From the NCBI GenBank assembly GCA_964350495.1, contig CAYGKG010000004.1, positions 1,900 through 65,899 of the forward strand: 64,000 nt of DNA, given 5' to 3'. Below, piece by piece: positions 156 to 43,644 of the stretch. This DNA comes from an uncultured Alphaproteobacteria bacterium. GTDB taxonomy: Bacteria > Pseudomonadota > Alphaproteobacteria > SHVP01. Position 1 is the first letter of the stretch. Each line of letters opens with the position of its first letter. The position numbers were made by a program, and so were the translations under genes. The notes beneath the pieces are model-generated. The model ran no database searches. It had not been told where the DNA came from and saw nothing but the letters and a program-made list of their open reading frames with translations.

Positions 156-422
156 GTGTCCTCCCAAGATCGAATGCCGCGAGCCTAGTGGGATGACGGT
201 CCCGGCGCCATGATCGCCGTAACCGTCGGGATACTGTGGATCACGCCTTCGTGCGAGGTCTCGCTTGCGCCGGATTCAGCCAGATTCAGAATGACGCCAA
301 GGTTCTTGCCGCGCTACGGTGATCCGCTGACGCAAAGGGATTGACGCGCGACCGTCGCCGACGACGGAATCGCTCCGCTTCGTTCGTGTTGTCGCCAGCT
401 TTGAGGAAAAGGTCTTTGGTCG

Positions 423-4700: not shown

Positions 4701-4937
4701 CCGATTTTTAGTTCCACGCTGACGAGCGTCTTCGGGATGTTGCCGCTCGTGATGTTCCCCGGAGCAGGGTCCGAACTTTACCGTGGCCTTGGATCTGTCG
4801 TGGTTGGCGGCCTGGCATTGTCCGCCGTGCTGACAATGGCCATCGTACCGCCGATGATGTCGATCACCGTCGCATGGATCGAAGGACGCGGGCGCGAGCG
4901 CGGGAAGACCCAAGAGATCGAACAACCCGCCACTTAG
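1752..4937 (+). CDS. RND efflux transporter permease (AcrB/HAE1 family)
   Basis: 1061 aa with 12-TM RND topology and two large periplasmic loops. The N-terminus is typical (MNIIQLSIQRPIAVLAAVVMIVLFGW). The start codon directly follows the MFP stop (taa-atg). Confidence 0.9.
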   Translation: MNIIQLSIQRPIAVLAAVVMIVLFGWVSLDRIPIQMAPDVRQPVIRVTTNWPGAAPAEIEREVINRQEEVLKGIEGLQRMESNARNNQGNVELEFSPDADLNRSLLLVANRLDRVSGYPEEADEPTLSTFGTEDNSIAWFTLRRVEGNTRDLTSYSAFLQDVVQDGIERVDGVAGVNVWGATEQEMRIEIDPERLSRYALTVNDVVSRLRTANASITGGDVDEGKRRYIVRTEGDFTTVAQVQSMLLRSESDGSGVGRVSLGDIADVFVQFKERNAVSKTMGAPSMTLSITGQQGANIIETMDRIRAKVRELSEGPLKEAGLFVTQIFDETDYIKSAINLVLQNVVIGGLLAVVILLIFLRSWRPTLVVALSIPVSVIGSFVAMAILGRSLNVISLAGIAFAVGMVVDAAIVVLENIYRLRQKGYPAHKAAYEGAAQVWPAVLVSALTTVMVFIPILVMTLEAGQLFRDIAVAISVSVTLSLLVSVTLIPALANRMLAGGVAEREKTFPLPGIDHFGRAFTAFWVWFSRLVVRRKAVAVGVIVGITGAAIAISISVLPKVDYLPTGNRNFVFGFVTPPSGYNLRTTEAITDLIEDGTRNYWAEGADPNVLEINGVPALKNYFSIALQGRAFVGGTTVDESRAGEIIPLLQRPARDEPGTLAFLFQPSLFGRSVGGGRSIDIDISGADLKVLFDVAQNAYDRVQQVLPQSQGHRTRPRPGLEFGAPEVRVVPDRLRLADNGLTARDLGQTIDAFNDGLRVAEINFGGKRIDLTLAGSAPLREETQAIGALPVVTRGGRIVPVESLADVIVTSGPTEIRRVERARTVTLQVSPARTMPLQEAIDIINEQVLAPMQAEGLPAGVAFNLSGSADKLTQTMDELSIDLVLALVIVFLVMAVLFESFIYPLIIMLSVPVAAAGGLGGLALLNRFVIQPLDMLTMLGFVILIGIVVNNAILLVHQTLHNIRKEGMAPEDAITDATRNRIRPIFSSTLTSVFGMLPLVMFPGAGSELYRGLGSVVVGGLALSAVLTMAIVPPMMSITVAWIEGRGRERGKTQEIEQPAT

Positions 4938-4960
4938 TCACTAACCCCTCGGAGGCACGA

Positions 4961-5854
4961 ATGTCCGCCATGCCAACGCCTATCGCCGACGCGATCCGTG
5001 CCATGGGGAACGTGTTCGACCCCAGCGTCGTCGCGCAAACATTCGCGCTTTACGATCCGCTGATCGCGGGCGCCCCGCGAGAGGGGGTCGGTGTGGTCCG
5101 GGATGTGAGGTACGGATCCGATCCACGCCATTTGTTGGATATCCATGTTCCTGAAGGCGTTGCTGGGCAGCCCATGCCGGTGGTCGTCTTTATCCACGGC
5201 GGCGGTTTTGTGCGGGGTCACAAGAATTCTAACCCCGACAATCTGGACATGGCTTACGCCAATATCGCCACCTATTTTGCGCGCAACGGCATGGTTGGCG
5301 TGAACGCGACCTACCGCCTTGCACCGGATCATCAATGGCCGGCGGGCGGCGAAGATGTCGGGTCGATGGTGGCGTGGTTGCGCGACAATATCGCTGCGCA
5401 CGGTGGCGATCCCGACAGCATTTTCCTGTTCGGCCAATCTGCCGGGGCGGTTCATGCGGCGACCTACCTGTTCTTCCCCGAGTTGCACTGCGCGCCGGGG
5501 TCGGGCGTTGCGGGCGCCGTGCTATTTTCTGGCGTCTATGACGTGGAGGCTGTCCCGGCACCTGCTGCCGAAGCCTATTACGGCCCCGATAGGGCCCAGT
5601 ACCGCGCGCGGTCGCCGCTCCATGCCGCCGCGAACAGCGACGTGCCATTGTTCATCGTTATTGCCGAGTATGACCCGCCCATGATGGAACTGCAGGGCAT
5701 CGACCTGCTTCGGACGGTGGCGCGACGGGACGGGCACAGTCCGCGGTTCTCGCGGCTGAAAGGTCACAATCACCTGTCCGAGGCGCTGCACCTCAATACA
5801 GGCGAAGAAACGGTTGGGCCGGAGTTGCTCGATTTCGTCCGGACGCGACGCTAG
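4961..5854 (+). CDS. Alpha/beta-hydrolase (esterase/lipase family)
   Basis: Oxyanion-hole motif HGGGF and nucleophile elbow GQSAG are present. Start is taken at MSAMPTPIAD, preceded by GGAGG. The upstream extension of the ORF-track frame overlaps the RND gene. Confidence 0.75.
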   Translation: MSAMPTPIADAIRAMGNVFDPSVVAQTFALYDPLIAGAPREGVGVVRDVRYGSDPRHLLDIHVPEGVAGQPMPVVVFIHGGGFVRGHKNSNPDNLDMAYANIATYFARNGMVGVNATYRLAPDHQWPAGGEDVGSMVAWLRDNIAAHGGDPDSIFLFGQSAGAVHAATYLFFPELHCAPGSGVAGAVLFSGVYDVEAVPAPAAEAYYGPDRAQYRARSPLHAAANSDVPLFIVIAEYDPPMMELQGIDLLRTVARRDGHSPRFSRLKGHNHLSEALHLNTGEETVGPELLDFVRTRR

Positions 5855-5857
5855 GTT

Positions 5858-7105
5858 CTAATTCTTGAGCGACGTGCCGGTCGTATCGGCGCCGTCGAGA
5901 TTGGCGCCCGACAGATCGGCATCCGTTGTCTCGGCGCCCGCGAGGTTCGCCTCGCGTAAATCGCACTGGCGAAGGTTCGCGCCTGAAAGATTTGCCGCCG
6001 ACAAATCGCTGCGCATGAGGCGCGCATCCGACAGGTTGGCACCGGACAAGTCCGCGCCGTGGAGATCTGTCTGCTCGGCGATGGCACCGTGTAGGTCGCC
6101 GTCTGTCATTTTGGCTTCACGCAGGGTCGCGCCCGACAGGGCGCTTTGTCGCAGGGATGCATTGCTCAGATCGGATCGGCGCCGTTCCCCGGTCGACTCG
6201 CCGCTAGGGTTCAGAATTTGGGCAGGCTCGAATCGGGCTTCCTCGAGGCGGGCATGGCGAATCTTTGCGGCCTTGAGCGACGCTCCGGTCAAGTCGGCGC
6301 CACGTAGGTCGGCATCGTCCAAGACCGCACCGTCAAGCTCCGACAGAACCAACCAAGCACCGGCCAGCAGCGCGCCCTTGAGGTTCGTGCCGCGCAAATT
6401 GGCACCGCTCAGGTACGCCGATCTCAGGTCGATGCCGCCTAGGTCGCGCCCGGCGAAATCGGCGCGTTTACCCAGTGCGCCAAAGGAGTCGATCCACAGG
6501 GCGTGTTCGCGCAGCAGTAATTGGATGTCCTGGGGTAGCGCGGCACCGGTTAGGTTGATGACGGCGCCCTCGAGTTCGGCGCGATCGAAATCGGTGTCCA
6601 GCAGCAGAGCACCCCGCAGATTGGCGTGCGAGGCGTTTGCCCCGACAAACGATGCGCGCGTCAGATCGCTCGCGCCAAGTTCTGCCTGCCCGAGCTGGGC
6701 GTTCTCAAAATTGGCGCCGCGAAGGGTCGCACCGTAGAGCACGCTTCGTTGTTGGGTTTCGCCGTTCTCAGCCGGCCGCAGATCTGCACCGGCAAAGTTG
6801 GCCTCGCTCAGTTTGGCATGCCTCAGTCGGGCGCCGCGCAAGTTGGCGTGTTCGAAATTCGCACCTTCGGCGTCGGCATGCTCGAAGTTCGCCAAGGCCA
6901 AGGCCGCCCGACCGAAATCCGTACCGGTTAGGACGCACCGCGAAAAGTCCGTTCCGCTAAGAACGGACTCGCGCAAATTGAGTCCCGGCAAACGCAGTCC
7001 CGAAAGATTCTCACCTTCGATCCGCGCCCTTTTGCCGCCGGGCTCGCGCTTGGAGAAGCGTTCGTGCGCCCTCAAGAGCTCGACAAATTCTTGGGCGGTC
7101 AACAC
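5858..7105 (-). CDS. Pentapeptide-repeat protein (two repeat blocks, 415 aa)
   Basis: Long runs of A(D/N)LxGA(N/D)L-type pentapeptide repeats (ADLSGANLSDARLMRSDLSAANLSGANLRQCDLREANLAG...) are split into two blocks by a linker. Confidence 0.8.
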   Translation of the reverse strand: MLTAQEFVELLRAHERFSKREPGGKRARIEGENLSGLRLPGLNLRESVLSGTDFSRCVLTGTDFGRAALALANFEHADAEGANFEHANLRGARLRHAKLSEANFAGADLRPAENGETQQRSVLYGATLRGANFENAQLGQAELGASDLTRASFVGANASHANLRGALLLDTDFDRAELEGAVINLTGAALPQDIQLLLREHALWIDSFGALGKRADFAGRDLGGIDLRSAYLSGANLRGTNLKGALLAGAWLVLSELDGAVLDDADLRGADLTGASLKAAKIRHARLEEARFEPAQILNPSGESTGERRRSDLSNASLRQSALSGATLREAKMTDGDLHGAIAEQTDLHGADLSGANLSDARLMRSDLSAANLSGANLRQCDLREANLAGAETTDADLSGANLDGADTTGTSLKN

Positions 7106-7281
7106 CTGACTCGACCCCCAACATCCCTAAACATCACTACCAACCAAACTATTCCGGGCGACTGTTGAAAAGATGGCGTTCGGCGACGAGAATTGCCAGC
7201 ACTACTAGTGCGCACTTCGGATCAAATTTGAACTAAAGTCGGCGTTAACCATAATTACTGTTGAATAACTAGGATTGATGC

Positions 7282-8688
7282 ATGGCAGCGGCACCGACGG
7301 GGCAATACATCATTGAAGCTGGGTGGGTCCTTGCCCACCGCGACAACGAGTCGGTATTGATTCCGAACGGTTCGGTTCGGGTGGAACACGACCGCGTCGC
7401 GGAAGTCAGCGAGGGGCGCATCGCCGGCAACCTCCCGCGTATTTCGATTCCCGGCGATATCGTTATGCCTGGACTCATCAGCGGCCACACCCACGTTGCG
7501 AGTGGAACGCCCACGCGGGGCATCATTGAGGGTGGCCGTTCATATTCGCGCCCTATCAAGTTGATGGACCAGCTCTCGGACGACGAGCTAGACGACTTAA
7601 CCGCATTTAACCTACTCGAGATTCTAAAAGCCGGATGCACGACCCAGGTAGAGATGAGCCTTAGCCTGCGGCAGGCCGAATCCTATGTGCGGGTGGCAGG
7701 GGCATGGGGCGCCCGGGGGTTTCCCGGCGGCATGATCCCCGGCACTTCTCGTTTGGACGGGATTTGGTTTAGGGACGACGACCAAGCGCTCTTTGACTCG
7801 GTACCCGACACATTGGCGGAGATCGAAGCCAATCTCGATTTCGGCAGGAAGCTCGCGGGATCCTATGACGGTCGCATGATGGGCATGATGGCGCCGCATG
7901 CGACCGACACCCATACCGACGAGACGATGTCGGCGATTATTGCCGCCGCGGGTGAGCTTGGAACCGGCATTCAAATTCATTTGTCGCAGCGTGCGACGGA
8001 GACCGACGCCGTGCGCCGCCTTCAGAACGGTCTTTCGCCGACCCAATGGTTGGACAAGCTCGGCGGGTTTGCCGGACCCTTTCTCGGCGCCCACATGTCC
8101 GGTCTCGACTGGGAAACCGATCCAGAAATATTGAAGCGGCACGACGCGGTCTATGCGCATTGCCCGTCCGCCGGCGGTGCGGGCGGCGCGACGCAACCCT
8201 ATCCGGAGGCGCTAGCGGCTGGGATCGCCACGAATATCGCCATCGACACACACTCGAACGACTTGCTTGAGAATATCAAGCTTGCGGTGATTGGCGGTAA
8301 GGCGCGGGCAAAATTGCTCGCCGGATCGAAGGTCAAGATGCCGACGATTTGGGATGCGGTCGACGGTGCCACCGTTGTCGCGGCGGACGGGTTAAGGCGG
8401 CCCGATCTGGGCCGGCTATGCGCAGGTGCGAAGGCCGATTTCATTACCGTGGATCTATCGGACTGGTTGGTCGGCGCCGGTGCCGCGCCGCCGGAACCTT
8501 TGAACAATTTGCTTTACGCGAACGGATCGATGGTTCGGCATGTCGCGGTCGACGGTAGATTTCTCGTTTACGATCGTGCCCCAACAATGGCTAACGAAGG
8601 CGACATCTTCGAACGGGGCGCAGTGGTGAATCGCAAGATTTGGAAGCAACTTGCCGACGAAAACTGGTTTACCCCAACGCCCAGATGA
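7282..8688 (+). CDS. Amidohydrolase-family metal-dependent hydrolase (chlorohydrolase/aminohydrolase-like)
   Basis: 468 aa. The metal-binding HxH motif (PGLISGHTHV) sits near the N-terminus, with later conserved His and Asp residues. Overall TIM-barrel amidohydrolase layout (TRZ/ATZ-like). Confidence 0.75.
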   Translation: MAAAPTGQYIIEAGWVLAHRDNESVLIPNGSVRVEHDRVAEVSEGRIAGNLPRISIPGDIVMPGLISGHTHVASGTPTRGIIEGGRSYSRPIKLMDQLSDDELDDLTAFNLLEILKAGCTTQVEMSLSLRQAESYVRVAGAWGARGFPGGMIPGTSRLDGIWFRDDDQALFDSVPDTLAEIEANLDFGRKLAGSYDGRMMGMMAPHATDTHTDETMSAIIAAAGELGTGIQIHLSQRATETDAVRRLQNGLSPTQWLDKLGGFAGPFLGAHMSGLDWETDPEILKRHDAVYAHCPSAGGAGGATQPYPEALAAGIATNIAIDTHSNDLLENIKLAVIGGKARAKLLAGSKVKMPTIWDAVDGATVVAADGLRRPDLGRLCAGAKADFITVDLSDWLVGAGAAPPEPLNNLLYANGSMVRHVAVDGRFLVYDRAPTMANEGDIFERGAVVNRKIWKQLADENWFTPTPR

Positions 8689-9680
8689 CTCTATCGGTCG
8701 AGCAAACCATTCGTGACCACCTGGCGACACCAAGCTCAGGTTGGGCAATCGGCGCGTTCGGTGCCATTGCCGAATTCATTCGCGATCCGGATGAATGCCT
8801 TGCAGCGCAGGGACCGTTGGTTGTGGCCACAGAGCGTGGTGCAATTCGCATCCACGTGCCAGCCGGCGTGCAACCGGTGGCCTACGAGAGCGTTAGCGCC
8901 CACCCGGACCGCTGGCTGCACGGCATCGCTTTCTGTCTAAGCGAATCGGCCGCGCGCATGAGCGTTCGTCGCACGCTCACGGAGGTCGGGCCCGACGCGG
9001 AATCGATTCTCGAACGCGATCGCCAGGCTATCCTGTTCGATATCGGAACGGGCGCCGCGAACGTCGATGCTTTGGTACGGACGGACGATCCAATCTTGAT
9101 CGCGTTACTGCGTCGCTACGCGGGCCTCAATGCACTCGCGGCGCCCGAGATCATGGCGGCAATCGTGGCGGCAAACCCCCACCGCGTTTTCGTGTCGCGG
9201 ATGGGGCGTATCGAGGTCCGCCAGCGGATCGGCTCGCGCGACGCCGATCCACCGACTCCGGAAGGACCGCACACCCATGTGCTGCCGAACGTGTTGAGTA
9301 AGGGGCGAACCCACTCGGCCAATTTGCCGATCCCGGCCGGAACCGCCCCGTGCCTCAATCTCTACCCGGCAAACCCCACGTTCGACATGTTAGGCCGTCC
9401 GCGGGCGTTCGACGACTCGGCTTTCGCGCGCTTTCAAACACTTCTGGAAGCATGGGGCGTGCCGAGCGCTATTGACGCGAAGCGTTCCGCCCTTGAGGCG
9501 CTTGGTGCCGGTTTGGAGCCGGCAACGTTTCGTGCACCGGACCGCATTGGCCGGGCGGCCGTTCGGGTCGCGTTGCGCCAGGCAATACGCCGAGAGGGCG
9601 AATCGGCGCGGCTGGCCGAATGGCGTGCGGTCCACGATGGATCGACCTACCGGCCGGACGATCATCACCCCGACCACTAA
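8685..9680 (+). CDS. Hypothetical protein, translationally coupled to the upstream amidohydrolase
   Basis: Its ATG at 8685 overlaps the amidohydrolase TGA (ATGA). The 331-aa ORF has coding-like composition and no recognisable motifs. Confidence 0.55.
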   Translation: MTLSVEQTIRDHLATPSSGWAIGAFGAIAEFIRDPDECLAAQGPLVVATERGAIRIHVPAGVQPVAYESVSAHPDRWLHGIAFCLSESAARMSVRRTLTEVGPDAESILERDRQAILFDIGTGAANVDALVRTDDPILIALLRRYAGLNALAAPEIMAAIVAANPHRVFVSRMGRIEVRQRIGSRDADPPTPEGPHTHVLPNVLSKGRTHSANLPIPAGTAPCLNLYPANPTFDMLGRPRAFDDSAFARFQTLLEAWGVPSAIDAKRSALEALGAGLEPATFRAPDRIGRAAVRVALRQAIRREGESARLAEWRAVHDGSTYRPDDHHPDH

Positions 9681-9714
9681 CTTCCCGGGCTTGACTCGAC
9701 CCACCCGCGGCGTG

Positions 9715-9890
9715 TGACAATGGCTGCGACGGTTCCCCGCAAGGGGTGAAAAGGGAACACGGTGAGGCTTAGGCCGAAACCGTGGCTGCCCCCGCAACTG
9801 TAAGCGACGAGCTGGCGTCCGAACGTGCCACTGGGAAACCGGGAAGGCAGGGCGTTGGCGGTGACCCGCGAGCCAGGAGACCTGCCGTCA
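9715..9890 (+). ncRNA. Cobalamin (AdoCbl) riboswitch
   Basis: Conserved elements are read directly: AAGGGAAcacGGTGAgg, GCTGCCCCCGCAACTGTAAGCG, the B12-box GCCACTGGGAAaccGGGAAGGC, and the closing GAGCCAGGAGACCTGCC. It lies in the 5' leader of btuB. Confidence 0.85.
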
Positions 9891-10091
9891 ACGTCACCCA
9901 TCCGTCGATCGGGGCGCTCGGTGGTGCGGATTTCCGTAGTGGTGGCGACGAATGTACGTCGTAGCTGGGGGTCCGCGAGATGGAAGCTTTTGCCTTTCCG
10001 GAGAGACAAACCGCCAAGAATCGGGTGCCAGAGCTTTGTCTGGCCTTCGACGCTGCGAACGTACGCCACGTTCATCGCTTCGGAGGTCTTC

Positions 10092-12038
10092 ATGAAAACA
10101 GTAACGACAGCCACGGCGCTCGCCATGGGTCTACTTGCCGCTAGCCCGATCGACACCGCCCGGTCCCAGGGGTTGTTGCCTGAGACGATCGTCACCGCGA
10201 CTCGGTTGCCGACACCGCGGGAGCGCGTCGCCAGTTCGGTGACGGTCATTACCGCGGCGGATATCGCGGCCAAACAACAACGAACGTTGGTGGACGTGCT
10301 CGGCGACGTGCCGGGTCTACAGGTTGTGCAGTCGGGCGGGTTGGGCAAACAAACCTCGGTGTTCTCGCGCGGGAGCAACAGCAATCACACGCTGATCGTC
10401 ATCGACGGCGTCGAGATGAGCGACGCCAGCACGCCGAACGGGGCGTTCAATTTTGCCCATCTTTTGTCTGCAGACATCGAACGCATTGAAATCGTTCGCG
10501 GCCCGCAAAGCACGTTGTACGGGTCCGATGCGATCGGTGCGGTTATCAATATCACGACGAAACTGGGGTCCGGCCCTGCGCAGTATTTCGTGCATGGCGA
10601 AGGCGGGTCCTTCGACACCATCGCCGGCACGCTCCAGGCGCAGGGAAGCCGCGGGCGTCTTCAGTATGCCCTTGGGACAAGCTACCTCGATAGCGACGGC
10701 GAGAGCGTGACGCCCGCGCGCATTCGTGCCCTGCAGGCAGGCGCTACCGAGGAAGATGACGGTTACACCCAGCGTTCGGCATCGGTGCGTCTCGCCTATG
10801 AGGCCTCCGAAAGCGTGAACTTCGGTTTCGCGCTGCACCACATCAGAACCCGGTCCGAAACCGATCAACCGATCGAAGACCCCGATGCCTACGAACGGAC
10901 CCGTCAGTGGTTTGGCCGGGCGGACGCCACATTGGATTTCTTTGGCGGACTCATGGAATCGATTGTCGGCGCGTCGGTGACCCGCCACACACGGGATTCG
11001 TTCAATGTGCCTGGGATCGCTAACACGTTGCAGCGGAGCGACGATCTGGGAACAAAAACCAAGTTCGAAGTCCAAAACAGTTTCTTCGCGATTGACGATC
11101 ACGTTCTAACCTTGGGCCTGGAAACCGAACTCGATTCGCTGAAGAACGTGCAGTTCTCCAACTTCAGCGGTTTCACAATCGTGGGGACGACCGATTCGGA
11201 CGCCCGGACGAACGCGGCCTACGTCCAGGATCAGTTTGTGCTCGGCGAACGGGTGTTCGGCACTGTCGGCATTCGCTACGACGATCACGACACGTTGGGA
11301 TCGAAACTCACTTTCCGGTTAGCGCCGGTCGTCGCCTTTCCTGAGCACGGGCTTCGCCTCAAAGGAGCGGTCGGAACGGGGTTTCGTGCGCCCGCCTTGT
11401 TTCAGCTGTTCGGCAACACGCGTAGCAGCAACGGCGGTGTCTTTACCGGCGATCCCAATCTGCGCGCCGAAGAAAGCATGGGGTGGGAAGTTGGCTTCGA
11501 GCAAACGATGTTGGCCGGCAAGGTCGTGATGGGATCGACTTATTTCGATCAAGAAATCAAGAACCTGCTTGAGACGAAGTTCACAGGTTCGAACTCCACC
11601 GTCATTAACCTAGCGCGCGCGGACATCTTTGGGTTCGAGTCGTTTATCAGTGCAAGCGTGACTCCGACAGTTACGGTCAGGCTCGACCACACTTTCACCC
11701 GTGCCGAAAACAAAGCCACAGGTGGAGACTTGCGGCGGCGGCCTAAACAAAAACTTAGCGCCGACGTTCGCTACCAAGCGAGCGACCGGTTGTCGGTTGT
11801 CGGCGGTATGCGGTTTAACGGGCCGGGAAAGGACGTTTCCGGAAATCCGCTTGCGTCGTCCCAAGAGATCAACAAGGGAAGTCACACCCTCGTGGACGTT
11901 TCGGCAAATTACGACGTCAACGACGACGCGTCGCTATTCGGCAGGATCAATAACCTGCTGAACCGGAAGTATGAGACTGCCGATGGGTTGGCAGGGGCGA
12001 GCCGCGCGGTTGTCGTCGGCGCCCGCCTGAGGTTCTGA
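10092..12038 (+). CDS. btuB: TonB-dependent outer-membrane cobalamin receptor
   Basis: Signal peptide MKTVTTATALAMGLLAASPIDTARSQ. A TonB-box-like ETIVTATR follows, then the plug and barrel domains. The C-terminal residue is aromatic (RLRF). GGAGG lies upstream. The gene is downstream of the B12 riboswitch. The ORF-track start at 9825 would cut through the riboswitch. Confidence 0.85.
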   Translation: MKTVTTATALAMGLLAASPIDTARSQGLLPETIVTATRLPTPRERVASSVTVITAADIAAKQQRTLVDVLGDVPGLQVVQSGGLGKQTSVFSRGSNSNHTLIVIDGVEMSDASTPNGAFNFAHLLSADIERIEIVRGPQSTLYGSDAIGAVINITTKLGSGPAQYFVHGEGGSFDTIAGTLQAQGSRGRLQYALGTSYLDSDGESVTPARIRALQAGATEEDDGYTQRSASVRLAYEASESVNFGFALHHIRTRSETDQPIEDPDAYERTRQWFGRADATLDFFGGLMESIVGASVTRHTRDSFNVPGIANTLQRSDDLGTKTKFEVQNSFFAIDDHVLTLGLETELDSLKNVQFSNFSGFTIVGTTDSDARTNAAYVQDQFVLGERVFGTVGIRYDDHDTLGSKLTFRLAPVVAFPEHGLRLKGAVGTGFRAPALFQLFGNTRSSNGGVFTGDPNLRAEESMGWEVGFEQTMLAGKVVMGSTYFDQEIKNLLETKFTGSNSTVINLARADIFGFESFISASVTPTVTVRLDHTFTRAENKATGGDLRRRPKQKLSADVRYQASDRLSVVGGMRFNGPGKDVSGNPLASSQEINKGSHTLVDVSANYDVNDDASLFGRINNLLNRKYETADGLAGASRAVVVGARLRF

Positions 12039-24137: not shown

Positions 24138-24214
24138 TGGCGCGCCCGGCAGGATTCGAACCTGCGACCCCAGGATTAGGAATCCTGTGCTCTATCCTAC
24201 TGAGCTACGGGCGC
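24138..24214 (-). tRNA. tRNA-Arg (anticodon CCT), with encoded CCA
   Basis: The reverse complement reads GCGCCCGTAGCTCAGTAGGATAGAGCACAGGATTCCTAATCCTGGGGTCGCAGGTTCGAATCCTGCCGGGCGCGCCA. This gives a cloverleaf with a D-arm (AGCTCAGT.GGATAGAGC), anticodon loop TTCCTAA and T-arm (GGTTCGAATCC). Confidence 0.9.
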
Positions 24215-31174: not shown

Positions 31175-31342
31175 GCCCCCACCAGACCAGATCGCCGCCT
31201 ACCTCGACAAGGGGGCAACAAATCGCTTGTGCTCTGCCCTGGATTGGCCTTATGGGCGGTACGTGACATCGCTCGATGGTGCCATCCCTGGCCGCAGCCG
31301 CCGGCCGGTCGCCAAATAGGCAAGATACGGTAAGCTAGGAAA

Positions 31343-33250
31343 ATGAGAGAACCCCTCAACCCGCCGACCGGACGAACCCTTGGTCCGGTCTCCGATCTCG
31401 AACGCCACCTTCCGTCGGACTGGTGGCAGACCCTCTTTAATTCGCTCTACCTCAAGACCGATGGCGATGTCGTGGAGAACGCGGCCAACACCAAGACCGA
31501 CATCGATTTGGTGCTCAAGAGCGTGGGTCTCGAGCCGAACGACCACGTACTGGACCTCTGTTGCGGACAAGGACGGCACAGTCTTGAACTGGCTCGGCGC
31601 GGTTTCCGGCATGTCACCGGCGTGGACCGGTCGCGCTACCTAGTGCGGCTCGCGCGGACGCGCGCGCGCAAGGAAGGGTTGAATGCGGCGTTTCGCGAAG
31701 GCGATGCGCGCACCGTTCGACTGAAAGCGGCGTCGTTCCACTGCGTCATCATGATGGGGAACTCCTTCGGCTATTTTGACCGGGAGGAAGACGACGCGGC
31801 CGTTCTTGAAACGGCGAAGAAAGCGCTGGTCTCGCGTGGCACCCTTGTGATGGACATCGCCGACGGCGAATGGATGAAGGACCGTTTCGAGCGGCGTTCT
31901 TGGGAGTGGGTCGACCAGAATCACTTCGTTTGCAGGGAGCGCAATCTGGCGCGCGACGGTAGGCGCCTGATCTCGCGCGAAGTTGTGGTCCACGCCGAGC
32001 GTGGCGTATTGGCCGACCAGTTCTATTCCGAACGCCTGTATACGCGCAAAGAGATTCAGGAACTGATGGAGTCGGTTGGCTTCACGCAAGTTCGTTTCCA
32101 CGCTGAGGTGCAAAGCGATTCGTCCCGGAACCAAGACCTCGGGATGATGGCGCATCGCTTGTTTCTCACGTCCGAGGCACCAGCGAAGTCGACCGTGACT
32201 CGAAAGCGCGAGGTTCCCTTCCCCGAGGTGACCGTTCTGATGGGCGATCCGCGGTTGCCCGACAGCGTAAAACTGGGTGGACAATTCAATCCCGAGGACT
32301 TGGACACGATCGAACGCTTGAAAGAAGCCCTTGGCGAGATGGAGGGCGTCTCCTTCAAGTATCTCGACAACCATCAGTCGCTCTGGACGGAGTTGCGGAC
32401 GAACCAGCCAAGTTTCGTCCTCAATCTGTGCGACGAAGGATTCAATAACGACGCGTTTCTCGAGCTGCACGTTCCGGCGATGTTGGAAATCCTCGGTGTG
32501 CCCTATTCCGGGGCGGCACCGGCAGCTCTGGGGTTGTGCTACGACAAGTCGTTGGTCCGCGCCGTCGCGCAGTCTCTCGACGTCCCAGTCCCGTCGGAGA
32601 CGTTCTTCGATCCCAGCGATCAGGCCGCGACGCTCCCCGGCATTTTCCCCGCGATGATCAAGCCGAATTTTGGCGATTCCAGTATCGGTATTACGAAGAA
32701 CGCGGTCGTCCGAACTCCGGAAGAGGCAATCAACTACATCAACGAGCTGCGTGAGCTCCTACCGAATCGGCCCTTGCTCGTCCAAGAGTACCTGGAGGGT
32801 GCCGAATACTCGGTTGGCGTCATTGGCAATCCCGGCTTCGACTTCCACGTCATGCCGGTACTGGAAGTCGACTATACCGGCCTGGACGCGGGGTTGCCGA
32901 AGATCTTGGGCTACGAGTCGAAGTGGGATCCGTCCTCGGCGTACTGGACTCAGATCAAGTACAAAGAAGCGGTGCTGTCGGAGGAGGATCGGCGACTTCT
33001 CGCCGACAATTCGCGTGCGTTGTTCGATCGGCTCGGCTGCCGCGACTACGCGCGCTTCGACTTCCGGGCGGATGCGGCGGGACGAATCAAGCTGCTTGAG
33101 GTCAATCCGAACCCCGGTTGGTCGTGGGATGCGAAGATGAACATCATGGCGGGGTTCGAAGGCTTGAGGTACTCGGACCTGCTTCGGATGATTGTCGAAG
33201 CCGCGCAGGCGCGTGTTGCGGCGCAGCGGGGGTCGGTTCCCGCAACCTAG
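31343..33250 (+). CDS. Fusion protein: N-terminal class I SAM-dependent methyltransferase + C-terminal D-Ala-D-Ala-ligase-like ATP-grasp domain
   Basis: N-terminal SAM-binding motif I VLDLCCGQGRHSLELARRG, with post-I acidic residue and motif II (FHCVIMMGNSFGYF). C-terminal ATP-grasp elements include MIKPNFGDSSIGI, LVQEYLEGAEYSVGVIGNPG and the LLEVNPNPGWSWDAKMN Mg/ATP loop typical of Ddl-like ligases. Confidence 0.8.
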   Translation: MREPLNPPTGRTLGPVSDLERHLPSDWWQTLFNSLYLKTDGDVVENAANTKTDIDLVLKSVGLEPNDHVLDLCCGQGRHSLELARRGFRHVTGVDRSRYLVRLARTRARKEGLNAAFREGDARTVRLKAASFHCVIMMGNSFGYFDREEDDAAVLETAKKALVSRGTLVMDIADGEWMKDRFERRSWEWVDQNHFVCRERNLARDGRRLISREVVVHAERGVLADQFYSERLYTRKEIQELMESVGFTQVRFHAEVQSDSSRNQDLGMMAHRLFLTSEAPAKSTVTRKREVPFPEVTVLMGDPRLPDSVKLGGQFNPEDLDTIERLKEALGEMEGVSFKYLDNHQSLWTELRTNQPSFVLNLCDEGFNNDAFLELHVPAMLEILGVPYSGAAPAALGLCYDKSLVRAVAQSLDVPVPSETFFDPSDQAATLPGIFPAMIKPNFGDSSIGITKNAVVRTPEEAINYINELRELLPNRPLLVQEYLEGAEYSVGVIGNPGFDFHVMPVLEVDYTGLDAGLPKILGYESKWDPSSAYWTQIKYKEAVLSEEDRRLLADNSRALFDRLGCRDYARFDFRADAAGRIKLLEVNPNPGWSWDAKMNIMAGFEGLRYSDLLRMIVEAAQARVAAQRGSVPAT

Positions 33251-33314
33251 CCGGTTTGACACCCGCGCCGCTGGTTTCTCATACTGATTTCGCACCTGCG
33301 AAAAAGAGAGATCG

Positions 33315-36012: not shown

Positions 36013-37224
36013 ATGGCAAGAGTTCCCGTTAGGCGGGCACGCGGAGACGCGCCGACGATCGCCGATCCGCCCTGGGTCGACGATGTGCGGCCGTCGGACG
36101 ATCCGCCGCCGCCGATTGAGCCCGACTGGGCGCGCGCAGTCCGTCCTTCGGACGGTGCCGCCTCTGAACCCTTCGAGCCCGATTGGGCTCAAGACCGCCC
36201 CGAGGACCGCCGGGCGCCAAGACCGATCGACCCGCCCTGGGCCGCTGAATCGGCTACCGATCGTGAGGACACCCTGCGGGCCGCCTTAGCTGAGGCTGCG
36301 CCGCCAGATCCGCCTTGGGCGCGCGCCGCCGCTAGACCGCGGCAGACAAAGCCGATTGACCCCCCTTGGGTCGAAGACAATCGCCCCACCAACGATCCAT
36401 TGCCGCCGATCGAGCCCGGTTGGGCGGCCGCGACGGCGGACACCGATGACGAGGCGCGCCAACCCGCCGATCCGCCGTGGGCGAACGCCGCCCCCGTTCG
36501 GGCGCCGGTGATCCTGCGTGGGCCGATCGATCCGCCCTGGGTCCCGGACGCCATTTCCGAAGCCCTCGACGCCAAAGAGGAAGCAGCGCGGGCTGCCTTC
36601 GAGCCGGCTTGGGCGGCCAACCCGGCGGTTCGGGTTCGTCGCGGCCCGCTTGCCCCGGTGGAGCCGTCATGGGCCACCGCCGGCGCGACGCCGGCGCCAG
36701 AACCTGCAGGGTTGTTTGATCCGGGGTGGGAGCGCAATCCGTCGCTCGCTTCCCTTCGACCGTCGCCGATCGAGCCCGATTGGGCGTCCGAAAGCAGCGA
36801 GGCGCGCGACGATCAAGCGATCGAGCTGTTCGACCCCGACTGGGAGGAGGCCGGATCCCTTCGGACGGCTGATACGTTGCCGCCGATGGAGCCCAGCTGG
36901 GCTGTCGAGACGCGCAGCGAGGTCGAGCAAGCGAGATCGGACCCGTTCGATTCGCGATATGAGGAGAATACCATTTCGTTGCCCGACAAGACCATCGTCC
37001 GGAGAGGTGCACGGCGGTTGAAGGACCTTGCATCGCAGGTGTCGTTGAATCCGTTTGGCCGCGCCAAGCGAAAGAGCGAGGCGCGCGCGCTCGACCGCCA
37101 AAAACTCATTGCCGAAGCGATGCGGATTCGTAGCGAGACCCGTGAGGCCCTCGGCGAGGATACAGTCAATGCACTGTACCGCGGCATTATGGGGACCGAT
37201 CCTCCGGCAGGCGAGAACCGCTGA
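36013..37224 (+). CDS. Acidic Pro/Trp-rich tandem-repeat protein (about 16 copies of an [I/F]-[DE]-P-x-W-[AEV] motif), unknown function
   Basis: The translation shows a ~20-residue periodicity: IADPPWV..IEPDWA..EPDWA..IDPPWA..DPPWA..IDPPWV..IEPGWA..DPPWA..IDPPWV..EPAWA..EPSWA..DPGWE..IEPDWA..DPDWE..EPSWA. It ends in a basic C-terminal segment. The gene sits between the mutase and meaB. Confidence 0.65.
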   Translation: MARVPVRRARGDAPTIADPPWVDDVRPSDDPPPPIEPDWARAVRPSDGAASEPFEPDWAQDRPEDRRAPRPIDPPWAAESATDREDTLRAALAEAAPPDPPWARAAARPRQTKPIDPPWVEDNRPTNDPLPPIEPGWAAATADTDDEARQPADPPWANAAPVRAPVILRGPIDPPWVPDAISEALDAKEEAARAAFEPAWAANPAVRVRRGPLAPVEPSWATAGATPAPEPAGLFDPGWERNPSLASLRPSPIEPDWASESSEARDDQAIELFDPDWEEAGSLRTADTLPPMEPSWAVETRSEVEQARSDPFDSRYEENTISLPDKTIVRRGARRLKDLASQVSLNPFGRAKRKSEARALDRQKLIAEAMRIRSETREALGEDTVNALYRGIMGTDPPAGENR

Positions 37225-41799: not shown

Positions 41800-43644
41800 T
41801 TAATGTCGAGCCCGGGCTTGGCCGGGGTCTTCGTCGAACAGGTCGGCAAGTTGCTCCATCATCGCGCCGCCGAGTTGTTCGGCGTCGACGATCGTCACGG
41901 CGCGGCGATAGTACCGATTGACGTCGTGCCCGATTCCGATGGCGATGAGTTCGACTGGCGATCGGTTCTCGATCCAATTGATCACTTCGCGCAGATGTTG
42001 GTCTAGGTAGTTGCCCGGATTAACCGACAGCGTCGAATCGTCGACCGGAGCGCCATCGGAGATCACCATGAGGATGCGCCGCTGCTCGGGCCGGGCCAAT
42101 AGCCGTTGGTGGGCCCATGTGAGCGCTTCCCCGTCGATATTTTCTTTGAGCAGTCCTTCGCGCAGCATCAGGCCCAGCCCACGCCGCGCGCGCCGCCAGG
42201 GTTCGTCGGCGGACTTGTAGACGATGTGGCGCAGGTCGTTCAGACGACCTGGGTTGAGCGGTTTGCCCTCCGACAGCCATTTCTCGCGAGCCTGGCCGCC
42301 CTTCCAGGCCACCGTTGTGAAGCCAAGAATTTCCACATTGACGCCGCAACGTTCGAGCGTCCGGGCGAGGATGTCCGCGCACATAGCAGCCACCGTGACC
42401 GGCCTACCGCGCATCGAGCCTGAATTGTCGATTAGCAACGATACGACGGTATCTCGAAAGTCGGTCTCGCGTTCCATCTTGTAGGACAGGGAATAGAGCG
42501 GATTGACGATCACCCGAGCCAGGCGGGCGGCGTCGAGTTGACCTTCCTCCAGGTCGAAATCCCAGGCCCGCTGCTGCTTGGCCATGAGCCGACGCTGGAG
42601 CCGATTGGCGAGCCTGCCGACCGCACCTTGCAGGTAGTGCAACTGCTGATCCAAATGGCGACGGAGGCGGGCGAGTTCGTCCGGATCGCACAGGTCCGAG
42701 GCATGAACGATTTCGTCGAATGCCGTGGTATAGGCGCGGTAGGTCGGTTCGTTGCGCCGCCGGCTAGGGTCGTCCTGCCATTGTTCGGGGCGCCCCCCAG
42801 GCTCTCCTTCGCCGGCCATTTCGCGTCGTTCCTCGGCACTCGTGCCGGCCGCCGATTCGGCGGCATCGTCCATCGACCCATCGGCCGCGTCGTCGCCGAC
42901 CGATTGCATCGCGCCTTCGGCTTCGCCGTCGCCTTCGTCGGATTGCCCCTCTTGTTCCTGATCGGCGTCGTCGGATTCCTCGGCTTCGTCCGGATCCGGC
43001 TCAAGGGTATCTTCTTCGGCCAGGTCGAGGTGGGCGATCAGGCGACGGGCAACCTTGGAGAACGCCGCTTGATCTCCAACCGTCTCGCATAGTGCGTCGA
43101 TGTCTTCGCGGGCAGGACCATCGAGGGTCTCACGCCAGGCGTCCACGATCGCCCGCGCCGCTTCGGGCGCTTCGGCGCCGGTGAGTTTCTCGCGTAAAGC
43201 CAGGCGCACAGCCTCCGACAGGGGCAGGTCATCTGGGCTACGAGTGTCCTCAGGTCGAGCCCGCTCGTAATGCTCGGCGAGCGCAGCCTCAAGGTTCCTC
43301 GCGACGCCTTCATACTGCAGTGCGCCGATAGCTTCGATCCGGGCTAGTTCCGCCGAGTCATAGACCGCTTGTGCAACCGCGCCGTCAGGACGTCGGCGCG
43401 CATGCAGCTTTGCGTCGTGGTGTCTTAGTCGGAGTGCAAAGGAATCGGCGACACCGCGAACCTGGCTCACCTCGTTGGTGTTGAGATCGCGGGAGGGTTG
43501 CGGAAGACGAACGCTGTCTTCCCTGATCCCGGGCGATTCGACGCCGAACGACACCTCGAGGTCTTTGACCGCAGAAATGGCCCGCGTAGCAGCGCTAACT
43601 GCCCGTTTGAAGTTCTCGACCGGGCTGCGGGTCTCGCTCGACAC
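41800..43644 (-). CDS. cobT: Aerobic cobaltochelatase subunit CobT (acidic region + C-terminal vWA domain)
   Basis: N-terminus (V/M)[22 protein letters not shown]...RLPQPSRD is typical of CobT. A long Asp/Glu-rich segment follows. The C-terminal vWA/MIDAS region is [19 protein letters not shown]. The GTG start abuts the cobS stop. Confidence 0.85.

What the first reader, a model, noticed from the sequence alone, without database searches (positions are those of the whole stretch)
31343..33250. Single-polypeptide fusion of a SAM-dependent methyltransferase and a Ddl-like ATP-grasp ligase
The N-terminal ~280 aa carry unambiguous class I methyltransferase motifs (VLDLCCGQGRHSLELARRG). The C-terminal ~330 aa carry ATP-grasp/D-Ala-D-Ala-ligase-like elements (LVQEYLEGAEYSVGVIGNP, LLEVNPNPGWSWDAKMN). 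An enzyme that both ligates a carboxylate to an amine ATP-dependently and methylates suggests a dedicated small-molecule or peptide modification pathway. It does not look like peptidoglycan Ddl, which has no methyltransferase domain. The gene stands alone, divergent from the Suv3-like helicase and immediately upstream of the B12-dependent mutase.
Basis: partly seen in the sequence, partly recalled or inferred. Interest (0 to 1): 0.65.

Follow-up and report, generated by a model that had tools for sequence, protein, structure and literature searches.

The report
Fused N-methyltransferase and Ddl-like ligase enzyme
This gene encodes one protein that joins a methyl-adding enzyme to an ATP-powered amide-bond-forming enzyme; the fusion is widespread and strongly conserved in environmental bacteria, nobody has characterised it, and it probably makes a small N-methylated peptide-like compound rather than cell wall.

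Summary
Bases 31343..33250 (+) are one uninterrupted 635-aa ORF. Residues ~26-256 are a class I SAM-dependent methyltransferase. Residues ~295-628 are a complete three-domain D-Ala-D-Ala-ligase-like ATP-grasp.

Every ATP/Mg/catalytic residue that could be mapped to E. coli DdlB is invariant in a 20-sequence family alignment.

The fusion is not an assembly artefact. More than 5,600 homologues exist, the best 120 listed are near-full-length matches (97-100% of the query), and it occurs in at least 551 species genomes. Cross-phylum identity is 60-70% and the tree interleaves phyla, which suggests horizontal spread.

It is not a cell-wall Ddl. It scores 108 bits against a cutoff of 243, substrate-site residues differ (Y216->W, L282->K), and there is no mur/fts context.

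The closest solved relative of the methyltransferase half is NmbA, the enzyme that N-methylates the cysteine amine of bacillithiol (32% identity).

No partner gene is universal. An AstE/AspA-type deacylase or M32 carboxypeptidase lies beside the gene (immediately downstream in most cases) in about 12% of loci, in separate clades.

Best reading: a self-contained two-step enzyme that ligates an amino acid to an amine, probably another amino acid, and N-methylates the product. The product is unknown and I found no publication on the family.

The parts
31343..33250 (+). Whole gene: 635-aa methyltransferase/ATP-grasp fusion protein (end coordinate includes the stop codon)
   Evidence: Single ORF. 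Identical protein P0001 and more than 5,600 homologues, the best 120 listed covering 97-100% of the query.
31175..31342 (+). Divergent intergenic region shared with the Suv3-like helicase gene; holds an AGGA Shine-Dalgarno-like motif 5-8 nt before the ATG
   Evidence: Sequence read. No sigma-70-like promoter or Rfam element was detected here.
31418..32110 (+). NmbA-like class I SAM-dependent methyltransferase domain (aa 26-256), including the N-terminal and internal cap segments
   Evidence: PDB 9RI2 (CtNmbA) E 3e-26 over aa 26-256. 32% identity over 225 aa. Pfam Methyltransf_25/31/11. Model strands and helices aa 47-252.
31547..31579 (+). SAM-binding motif I (aa 69-79, VLDLCCGQGRH); aa 70-79 are invariant in the family
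   Evidence: Invariant columns L70-H79 in the 20-sequence alignment.
32111..32224 (+). Inter-domain linker (aa 257-294). Its first part (SRNQDLGMMxxR) is conserved; aa 285-288 have low model confidence
   Evidence: Alignment. pLDDT below 50 at aa 285-288. Truncated gene calls elsewhere begin inside this segment.
32225..33226 (+). Complete three-domain Ddl-like ATP-grasp ligase module (aa 295-628)
   Evidence: Foldseek gives target TM-score 0.77-0.81 to Ddl structures over about 340 columns. hhalign places aa 376-621 against DdlB 71-305 at 99.5% probability. NCBIfam PRK01372 matches aa 326-623.
32243..32293 (+). Family-specific conserved loop in the ligase N-domain (aa 301-317, GDPRLPDSVKLGGQFNP), with no aligned counterpart in DdlB; candidate substrate-binding element
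   Evidence: Invariant G301, D302, L305, D307, K310, G313 and N316. The same motif is present in stand-alone relatives. The functional role is inferred.
32912..32926 (+). YESKW motif (aa 524-528). K527 corresponds to DdlB K215 (gamma-phosphate). W528 replaces DdlB Y216, a specificity determinant
   Evidence: Residue mapping to DdlB; the DdlB sequence was verified against PDB 1IOV. Both residues are invariant in the family.
33050..33142 (+). Catalytic C-terminal motif ARFDFR...LLEVNPNPGWSWDAKMN (aa 570-600). R571, D573, E586, N588 and G592 correspond to DdlB R255, D257, E270, N272 and G276. K598 replaces L282 and A597 replaces S281
   Evidence: Residue mapping and profile alignment. The residues are invariant in the family.
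33256..33285 (+). Sigma-70-like promoter match (TTGACA-18-CATACT) between this gene and the mutase gene. It suggests the mutase has its own promoter. It is not part of the enzyme but bears on whether the two genes form an operon
   Evidence: Consensus scan, 10 of 12 matches. This is a consensus match only.

Best explanation
The gene encodes a self-contained bifunctional enzyme.

The C-terminal module is an active Ddl-type ATP-grasp ligase. It would phosphorylate a carboxylate, most likely that of an amino acid, to an acyl-phosphate and couple it to an amine nucleophile. The nucleophile is most likely a second amino acid with a free carboxylate.

The N-terminal module is an NmbA-like SAM-dependent methyltransferase. 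It would methylate an amine of that substrate or product, most likely the free alpha-amine of the N-terminal residue.

The predicted product is a small N-methylated dipeptide-like amide built from common metabolites. That would explain why the gene needs no conserved neighbours.

In some lineages an adjacent AstE/AspA-type deacylase or M32 carboxypeptidase probably hydrolyses the product for turnover.

Shown here: the architecture, the intact catalytic residues in both halves, that it is not a cell-wall Ddl, its distribution, and the neighbour statistics. Inferred: the identity of both substrates, N- rather than O-methylation, the order of the two steps, and the physiological role (compatible solute, redox or other protective metabolite, or signal).
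For: - The single ORF is conserved end to end, with 60-70% identity across phyla.
- The DdlB residues K97, K144, S150, E187, K215, R255, D257, E270, N272 and G276 map to invariant K402, K440, S446, E488, K527, R571, D573, E586, N588 and G592. The model shows a full Ddl fold.
- SAM motif I and the acidic residues D95 and D121 are invariant.
- The ligase module functions without the methyltransferase elsewhere. Stand-alone 338-373-aa members exist at 44-65% identity. The module also occurs fused to S9 peptidases or in tandem.
- In one gammaproteobacterial MAG the fusion clusters with an M32 carboxypeptidase and two paralogous ligases.
- A specific AstE/AspA-like deacylase lies downstream of the fusion in 7 of 81 loci (adjacent in six), spread over three separate clades and in both orientations. 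An M32 carboxypeptidase lies directly downstream in 3 more loci.
- Invariant D596 and K598 replace DdlB H280 and L282 in the nucleophile pocket, which is compatible with a charged amino-acid-type nucleophile (this is an inference).
Against: - No activity has been measured for any family member, and no paper in the searchable library describes the family.
- 32% identity to NmbA is below the 35% floor that the NmbA authors used for their similarity network, so the acceptor atom and molecule may differ.
- About 88% of loci have no peptidase or deacylase next to the gene.
- The counterpart of DdlB Glu15, which binds the amine of the first D-Ala, could not be assigned, because the N-domain did not align by sequence and I had no access to model coordinates.
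- Cross-phylum conservation of 60-70% is unusually high for a secondary-metabolite enzyme and could instead indicate a conserved macromolecular substrate.
Confidence: 0.55

Rival explanations
1. Macromolecular modification. The ligase would add amino acid(s) to a protein or peptide carboxylate, as RimK does on ribosomal protein S6 or tubulin-tyrosine ligase does on tubulin. The methyltransferase would methylate the same target. Adjacent carboxypeptidases would reverse the addition.
For: - The unusually high cross-phylum conservation would fit a conserved protein target.
- The neighbours are carboxypeptidase-type enzymes: M32, AstE/AspA, and in one locus each MATCAP, M20 and M24.
- The ligase module is fused to S9 oligopeptidases in other proteins.
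- In L085-L087 an unannotated protein of about 1,100 aa follows the ligase paralogues.
Against: - The ligase is Ddl-type and not RimK- or TTL-type, and characterised Ddl-family enzymes act on small molecules (established knowledge).
- The methyltransferase's nearest characterised relative acts on a small thiol.
- No candidate substrate gene is conserved next to the fusion.
Confidence: 0.12
2. Carboxyl O-methylation logic. The methyltransferase would make a methyl ester on one carboxylate of a di- or tricarboxylic substrate, as a protecting or activating group. The ATP-grasp would then act regioselectively on another carboxylate. A neighbouring hydrolase would later remove the ester or amide.
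For: - There is precedent for methyl-ester chemistry working alongside ATP-grasp ligases in cystargolide and belactosin assembly (PMC11427300).
- AstE/AspA enzymes act on N-acyl derivatives of acidic amino acids (established knowledge; Pfam and NCBIfam hits).
Against: - The methyltransferase half is far closer to the N-methyltransferase NmbA than to any other solved methyltransferase.
- Weaker profile hits are also to N-methyltransferases: the daptide methyltransferase and glycine/sarcosine N-methyltransferase.
- No esterase recurs as a neighbour.
Confidence: 0.1
3. Low-molecular-weight thiol synthesis, a specific sub-case of the best explanation. The ligase would couple cysteine to an amine or amino-sugar acceptor, doing the job of BshC or MshC, or would build a glutathione-like peptide. 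The NmbA-like domain would N-methylate the cysteine amine, giving an N-methylated thiol analogous to N-methyl-bacillithiol.
For: - NmbA is the nearest characterised relative of the methyltransferase half, and the similarity includes the cap segments (PMC12719100).
- From my own knowledge, not tested here: the glutathione-synthetase module of GshF is a Ddl-like ATP-grasp.
- In one locus a hydantoinase/oxoprolinase gene lies upstream.
Against: - No bshA, bshB, bshC, gshA or gshB genes, and no thiol-related genes, recur next to the fusion or occur among the window genes scanned.
- 32% identity is below the NmbA authors' 35% similarity-network floor.
- Whole-genome co-occurrence could not be examined.
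Confidence: 0.1
4. A genuine peptidoglycan D-Ala-D-Ala ligase that happens to carry a regulatory or moonlighting methyltransferase domain.
For: Pfam Dala_Dala_lig_C and Ddl structures are the best matches for the C-terminal half. JGI annotates many members as D-alanine-D-alanine ligase.
Against: - It scores 100-108 bits against Ddl model cutoffs of 243-246 and shares only 20-24% identity with Ddl structures.
- Specificity positions differ: Y216->W, S281->A/G, L282->K.
- No mur, fts or ddl-type genes flank it.
- Its patchy, phylum-interleaved distribution is unlike an essential cell-wall gene.
Confidence: 0.02
5. A component of an anti-phage or conflict system, such as a MADS-like methylation-associated defence system.
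For: PADLOC reports mad2 (E 6e-23) over aa 29-184. One stand-alone ligase homologue sits on a phage-like contig. The phylogeny suggests horizontal transfer.
Against: - The mad2 match covers only the generic methyltransferase core.
- None of the seven flanking window genes scanned gives a specific defence hit; only the helicase has weak generic matches (E ~4e-5, about 20 bits) to its conserved C-terminal domain.
- The neighbours across 80 loci are housekeeping genes and vary from locus to locus.
- The module is virtually absent from 2.9 million viral contigs and from plasmids.
Confidence: 0.02

Closest known systems
D-alanine--D-alanine ligase family (DdlB, VanA; EC 6.3.2.4 and relatives)
   Same: It has the same three-domain ATP-grasp fold (target TM-score 0.77-0.81). 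The ATP, Mg2+ and transition-state residues are identical (K97, K144, S150, E187, K215, R255, D257, E270, N272, G276). The chemistry is therefore almost certainly acyl-phosphate formation followed by amine attack.
   Different: - Identity is only 20-24%, and the scores are far below the curated Ddl cutoffs.
- Y216->W, S281->A/G and L282->K, and invariant D596 replaces H280.
- A conserved 17-residue loop is inserted in the N-domain.
- It is fused to a methyltransferase.
- It has no cell-wall gene context.
NmbA, N-methyl-bacillithiol synthase (PDB 9RI2; PMC12719100)
   Same: It is the best solved relative of the N-terminal half: 32% identity over 225 aa, E 2e-31, spanning the Rossmann core and both cap segments. 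It is a class I SAM-dependent enzyme. By analogy the acceptor is a free amine on an aminoacyl-amide.
   Different: - NmbA is a stand-alone 266-aa protein that co-occurs with BshA, BshB and BshC.
- Here the domain is fused to a ligase, and no bsh genes are nearby.
- Identity is below the 35% floor the NmbA authors used for their similarity network.
- The acceptor is therefore probably a different molecule.
Ngg, the bifunctional N-acetyltransferase/ATP-grasp dipeptide synthase of the N-acetylglutaminylglutamine amide osmolyte pathway (recalled from my own knowledge; not tested here)
   Same: The design principle is the same. One polypeptide combines an N-capping domain with an ATP-grasp peptide ligase to make an N-blocked dipeptide from common amino acids.
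   Different: - The capping domain there is a GNAT acetyltransferase, not a methyltransferase.
- The ATP-grasp there is not Ddl-type.
- ngg is paired with asnO, and no such partner is seen here.
- I ran no sequence comparison, so this is an analogy only.
Stand-alone Ddl-like ligases of the same subfamily, all uncharacterised and annotated only as 'D-alanine--D-alanine ligase' (e.g. P0123, P0124, P0128, P0343, P0375)
   Same: They share 44-65% identity with the C-terminal half and carry the same signature motifs: GDPxLPD...K, NLCDEG, KPNxGDxSxGI, SKW, CRDYARFDFR and LEVNPNPGW.
   Different: - They lack the methyltransferase.
- They occur in other contexts: paired with a second paralogue and next to the fusion itself in L085-L087, and on a phage-like contig in L081-L083.
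- Related members are fused to S9 peptidases or duplicated in tandem.

Membership tests
D-alanine--D-alanine ligase (peptidoglycan Ddl) | Three-domain ATP-grasp fold with the conserved ATP, Mg2+ and catalytic residues | tested here: met
   Foldseek target TM-score 0.77-0.81. Ten DdlB residues map to invariant identical residues.
D-alanine--D-alanine ligase (peptidoglycan Ddl) | Score above the curated family cutoffs (NCBIfam PRK01372 and TIGR01205) | tested here: not met
   108.3 bits against a cutoff of 243, and 100.7 bits against 245.65.
D-alanine--D-alanine ligase (peptidoglycan Ddl) | D-Ala-binding residues (E15, Y216 or equivalent, S281, L282) | tested here: not met
   Y216->W528, S281->A/G597 and L282->K598. 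The E15 counterpart is unresolved.
D-alanine--D-alanine ligase (peptidoglycan Ddl) | Cell-wall or division gene context (mur, ftsQ) or demonstrated D-Ala-D-Ala synthesis | tested here: not met
   The window neighbours are a helicase and a B12 mutase. No mur or fts family appears among the 153 immediate neighbours scanned. Enzymatic activity is not testable with these tools.
Class I SAM-dependent methyltransferase | Rossmann-like fold with a glycine-rich motif I and acidic SAM-contacting residues; Pfam score above the gathering threshold | tested here: met
   Methyltransf_25 scores 69.5 bits (cutoff 27), and Methyltransf_31 and Methyltransf_11 also pass. DLCCGQG, D95 and D121 are invariant. The model shows the alternating strand/helix pattern.
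NmbA (N-methyl-bacillithiol synthase) | Close sequence similarity to CtNmbA (the authors' similarity network used 35-95% identity) | tested here: not met
   32% identity over 225 aa. It is the nearest solved structure but falls below the authors' 35% floor.
NmbA (N-methyl-bacillithiol synthase) | Co-occurrence with the bacillithiol genes bshA, bshB and bshC in the same genome | not testable with these tools
   Only 64 kb of this genome is available. None was seen among the genes scanned or in the flanks of 80 loci.
NmbA (N-methyl-bacillithiol synthase) | Methylates the cysteine nitrogen of bacillithiol | not testable with these tools
   This requires an enzyme assay.
DsyGD (bifunctional DMSP synthesis enzyme) | An N-terminal methyltransferase fused to a C-terminal PF04115 ureidoglycolate-lyase-like decarboxylase | tested here: not met
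   The C-terminal half here is an ATP-grasp (PF07478) and has no PF04115 domain. The DsyGD architecture was taken from PMC11306096.
MADS defence system (mad2) | A full-length mad2 match together with the other mad genes in the locus | tested here: not met
   The match covers only aa 29-184, corresponding to profile positions 255-415 of 492. No mad or other specific defence hits were found in seven flanking genes.

The most novel reading that the evidence does not exclude
This single enzyme may be the entire biosynthetic pathway for a metabolite nobody has described: an N-methylated dipeptide-type compound, possibly an N-methyl-cysteinyl thiol comparable to N-methyl-bacillithiol or a new class of compatible solute. 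The gene has spread horizontally through at least ten phyla of mostly uncultured aquatic, soil and subsurface bacteria, including Planctomycetota, Alpha-, Beta- and Gammaproteobacteria, Nitrospirota, Sumerlaeota and Omnitrophota. In some lineages a dedicated AstE-like or M32 hydrolase degrades the product.
Probability: 0.2. Interest if true: 0.75.

Novelty: new variant of a known kind. Interest (0 to 1): 0.5.

Why it matters
- It is a tractable lead to unknown chemistry. A 635-aa protein conserved at 60-70% identity across phyla, found in hundreds of species and apparently able to work without partner genes, is a good entry point to a possibly widespread metabolite that is missing from current pathway maps.
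- It affects annotation. Many members are automatically named 'D-alanine-D-alanine ligase'. That name could mislead inferences about peptidoglycan synthesis, particularly in Planctomycetota and in uncultured lineages.
- It extends the NmbA-type N-methyltransferase class beyond bacillithiol.
- It points to a larger uncharacterised subfamily of Ddl-like ligases (stand-alone, tandem and peptidase-fused) that may assemble short peptides without ribosomes or NRPS.
- One cultured carrier, Methylohalomonas lacus HMT 1 (L061), makes experiments feasible.

Tried and rejected
- **DsyGD / DMSP synthesis.** Rejected because its C-terminal domain is PF04115 and not an ATP-grasp.
- **Functional link to the adjacent methylmalonyl-CoA mutase and MeaB.** Rejected because the arrangement is shared only with the 92%-identical relative L001, and a promoter-like site separates the two genes.
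- **A conserved operon partner.** All-against-all clustering of 4,074 ORFs from 81 loci found recurrent neighbours (RpoH-like sigma factor, DUF6476, AnmK, DUF1194, ODC/LysA-like decarboxylase) only within one Stellaceae-like alphaproteobacterial clade, which indicates synteny by descent.
- **Split-gene (Rosetta-stone) test.** The contexts of the stand-alone ligases P0128, P0343 and P0375 showed no adjacent NmbA-like methyltransferase gene.
- **Phage or plasmid carriage.** One phage-like contig carries a stand-alone ligase. A scan of viral contigs gave only one weak hit at 32% identity, and the plasmid collection gave none.
- **Defence system.** The mad2 hit covers only the methyltransferase core, and the flanks have no specific defence genes.
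- **Mapping DdlB Glu15.** MAFFT misaligned the N-domain and hhalign aligned only from residue 376 onwards. My by-eye assignment to E318 is unverified and is not used as evidence.
- **Literature.** Four searches for a characterised methyltransferase/ATP-grasp fusion found nothing relevant.
- **Apparent stand-alone hits.** P0122, P0126 and P0131 are truncated calls of the fusion, because they begin inside the methyltransferase tail.
Full report
**Observation**

The ORF list shows a single open reading frame at 31343..33250 on the + strand, 635 aa, starting with ATG. An AGGA motif lies 5-8 nt upstream.

Pfam places class I methyltransferase models at aa 64-180 (Methyltransf_25, E 4e-19, 69.5 bits against a cutoff of 27). 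It places Dala_Dala_lig_C at aa 434-619 (E 1e-19, 71 bits against a cutoff of 24). A sequence search of the PDB matches aa 26-256 to a methyltransferase (9RI2, E 3e-26) and aa 377-622 to VanA and Ddl structures.

An AlphaFold2 model built from a 20-sequence family alignment has mean pLDDT 80 and pTM 0.68. Low confidence is confined to the first 21 residues, a short stretch of the linker (aa 285-288) and one loop. Foldseek against the PDB aligns about 340 columns of the model to Ddl structures at target TM-score 0.77-0.81.

**Is the fusion real?**

An identical protein and more than 5,600 homologues exist in the large protein collection. The best 120 listed all match 97-100% of the query, and nearly all carry both Pfam domain sets. 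In a 20-sequence alignment spanning Alphaproteobacteria, Planctomycetota, Sumerlaeota and Eisenbacteria, mean column identity is 69%. Conservation runs without a break through both domains and the first part of the linker.

A scan of one genome per species found at least 551 species carrying it. A frameshift or assembly artefact is excluded.

**Are both halves catalytically competent?**

In an alignment with the family, the DdlB residues map as follows, and every target residue is invariant:

| DdlB residue | Family residue |
|---|---|
| K97 | K402 |
| K144 | K440 |
| S150 | S446 |
| E187 | E488 |
| K215 | K527 |
| R255 | R571 |
| D257 | D573 |
| E270 | E586 |
| N272 | N588 |
| G276 | G592 |

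A profile alignment supports this register for aa 376-621 against DdlB 71-305, at 99.5% probability. In the methyltransferase half, motif I (DLCCGQG) and the acidic residues D95 and D121 are invariant.

**It is not a cell-wall Ddl**

- The curated Ddl models score 100-108 bits against cutoffs of 243-246.
- Identity to Ddl structures is 20-24%.
- Positions that set Ddl specificity differ and are themselves invariant in the family: Y216->W528, L282->K598 and H280->D596, with S281->A/G.
- The N-domain carries a conserved 17-residue loop (GDPRLPDSVKLGGQFNP) with no aligned counterpart in DdlB.
- No mur or fts genes are nearby in the window or among 153 immediate neighbours in other genomes.
- The counterpart of DdlB Glu15 could not be assigned by sequence methods.

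**What kind of methyltransferase is it?**

The nearest solved structure by fifteen orders of magnitude in E-value is 9RI2. [quoted passage not shown]

At 32% the domain falls below the 35% floor that the authors used for their similarity network, so I treat it as NmbA-like and not as NmbA.

**The ligase module in other settings**

An exhaustive HMMER search with aa 290-635 found 8,984 representative clusters at E<=1e-3 and 409 at E<=1e-30.

- **Stand-alone ligases.** These are 338-373 aa, share 44-65% identity and carry the same signature motifs. Some short hits proved to be truncated gene calls of the fusion.
- **Longer methyltransferase fusions.**
- **Fusions to S9 prolyl-oligopeptidase.**
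- **A tandem double ligase.**
- **A leucine-rich-repeat fusion.**

The last four architectures were identified.

In one gammaproteobacterial MAG the order is fusion, then M32 carboxypeptidase. An MFS transporter gene and a shikimate dehydrogenase gene follow on the other strand, and after them come two stand-alone paralogous ligases and an unannotated protein of about 1,100 aa. That layout would fit stepwise assembly of a short peptide. One stand-alone ligase lies on a phage-like contig, but the module is essentially absent from viral contigs and from plasmids.

**Neighbourhood**

I extracted ORFs from 80 fetched loci plus the window and clustered them all against all. I also scanned the immediate upstream and downstream genes by Pfam.

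No neighbour is conserved across phyla. The recurrent ones are confined to one Stellaceae-like clade: an RpoH-like sigma factor, DUF6476, AnmK, DUF1194 and an ODC/LysA-like decarboxylase.

There are two exceptions.

- **AstE/AspA-type deacylase.** It lies downstream of the fusion in 7 of 81 loci, within 600 nt in six of them. The copies are very similar to one another (E about 1e-110). The best curated match is DoeB, at 67 bits against a cutoff of 403. The seven loci fall in three separate clades of the fusion tree, the deacylase is co-directional in four of them and convergent in three, and one locus is from the cultured Methylohalomonas lacus.
- **M32 carboxypeptidase.** It lies immediately downstream and co-directional in three beta- and gammaproteobacterial loci, and again in L085-L087.

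Single loci also show MATCAP, M20 and M24 peptidases.

In the window itself the gene is flanked by housekeeping genes. On one side are CarD, ferredoxin, TerB and the Suv3-like helicase. On the other are methylmalonyl-CoA mutase, a proline- and tryptophan-rich repeat protein and MeaB. The window contains no paralogue and no AstE or M32 gene. The mutase adjacency is shared only with the 92%-identical relative L001, and a promoter-like site lies between the two genes.

**Phylogeny**

A neighbour-joining tree of the 81 proteins is star-like, and the phyla interleave. Gammaproteobacteria appear in three places, an Anaerolineales sequence pairs with a Phycisphaerae sequence, and two Rhodospirillaceae sequences nest within Phycisphaerae. 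The tree has no support values and serves only as an indication. Together with 60-70% identity between phyla, it suggests repeated horizontal transfer under strong purifying selection.

**Mechanism**

The best-supported reading has three steps.

1. The ATP-grasp half activates a carboxylate as an acyl-phosphate and couples it to an amine. The chemistry follows from the intact Ddl catalytic set. The substrates are inferred.
2. The NmbA-like half methylates an amine of the substrate or product, most plausibly the free alpha-amine left on the N-terminal residue. This parallels NmbA, which methylates the free amine of a cysteinyl amide. It is an inference.
3. Where present, the adjacent deacylase or carboxypeptidase removes a C-terminal residue from the product. 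This implies that the nucleophile is an amino acid with a free carboxylate. The invariant K598 and D596 in the nucleophile pocket are compatible with that, though this too is an inference.

A self-contained two-step pathway from common metabolites would explain the lack of conserved neighbours.

The rival explanations, in order of my confidence, are:

- modification of a protein C-terminus in the manner of RimK or tubulin-tyrosine ligase;
- cryptic carboxyl O-methylation, as in cystargolide assembly;
- a thiol-specific version of the main model;
- a true Ddl;
- a defence function, for which the only support is a PADLOC mad2 hit limited to the methyltransferase core, with no specific defence hits in the flanking genes.

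**Comparison with what is known, and verdict**

The protein works like a Ddl-type ligase joined to an NmbA-type N-methyltransferase, but it fails the membership tests for both Ddl and NmbA. The nearest design analogue I know of is Ngg, a GNAT acetyltransferase fused to an ATP-grasp that makes an N-acetylated dipeptide osmolyte. That comparison is from memory and was not tested.

Four literature searches found no description of this fusion. Databases name it only 'methyltransferase domain-containing protein' or, misleadingly, 'D-alanine-D-alanine ligase'.

I classify it as a new variant of known kinds. It is a real, widespread, uncharacterised bifunctional enzyme family whose product is unknown. 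Interest is moderate at 0.5. The architecture and conservation make it a good target for metabolite discovery and for correcting annotations, but nothing here shows chemistry outside the known repertoire of the two superfamilies.

Noticed in passing
window 9713-9903 (+): A cobalamin riboswitch (Rfam RF00174, 127 bits) overlaps the called start of a long ORF (9825-12035). The window also holds CobT (41803-43644, -), methylmalonyl-CoA mutase and MeaB, so B12-related genes are frequent in this stretch.
   Followed up: no
window 36013-37224 (+): A 403-aa ORF lies between the mutase and MeaB genes. G+C rises to 0.71-0.72 there. The ORF contains many repeats of a DPPW / EPxWA-type motif and has no Pfam, NCBIfam-independent or PADLOC match. 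Its function is unknown.
   Followed up: partly
L081-L083 (Logan contigs; gene at L081:6001-7017): A stand-alone 338-aa ligase of the same subfamily (P0128) sits on a phage-like contig made of many small unannotated ORFs plus MazG-like, DUF4326 and Rv2179c-like genes. A scan of IMG/VR found no comparable viral copies, so this is an isolated case.
   Followed up: partly
L085-L087 (gammaproteobacterial MAG GCA_017306795.1 and matching metagenome contigs), about 358-11987: This cluster contains the methyltransferase/ligase fusion, an M32 carboxypeptidase, two further stand-alone paralogous Ddl-like ligases (373 and 367 aa) and an unannotated protein of 1,080-1,117 aa. It may be a multi-step peptide assembly locus.
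   Followed up: partly
proteins P0222, P0256, P0240 and P0166: The same ligase module occurs fused to S9 prolyl-oligopeptidase domains (about 1,150-1,210 aa), as a tandem double ATP-grasp (702 aa), and after leucine-rich repeats (1,210 aa). None of these could be looked up for genomic context.
   Followed up: partly
L039 (MAG labelled Candidatus Bathyarchaeia), 8001-9848: A full-length copy at 65% identity lies in a bin labelled archaeal. This is either transfer into archaea or a binning error.
   Followed up: no
L003, L007, L013, L025, L032, L035, L036, L037 (about 400-1400 nt downstream of the fusion); L043 and L055 (2.5-5 kb downstream): In a Stellaceae-like alphaproteobacterial clade, a co-directional ODC/LysA-like PLP decarboxylase follows the fusion (best curated match lysA, 180 bits against a cutoff of 298). 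This is probably synteny by descent, but it could hint at a diamine or diamino-acid substrate.
   Followed up: partly
window 24141-24214 (-): A tRNA gene (Rfam RF00005, 73 bits).
   Followed up: no
window 31343-33247, aa 29-184: The PADLOC model mad2 (MADS defence system) matches the methyltransferase core at 79.5 bits, higher than any generic Pfam methyltransferase model. This suggests that mad2 and the NmbA-like methyltransferases are related subfamilies.
   Followed up: partly
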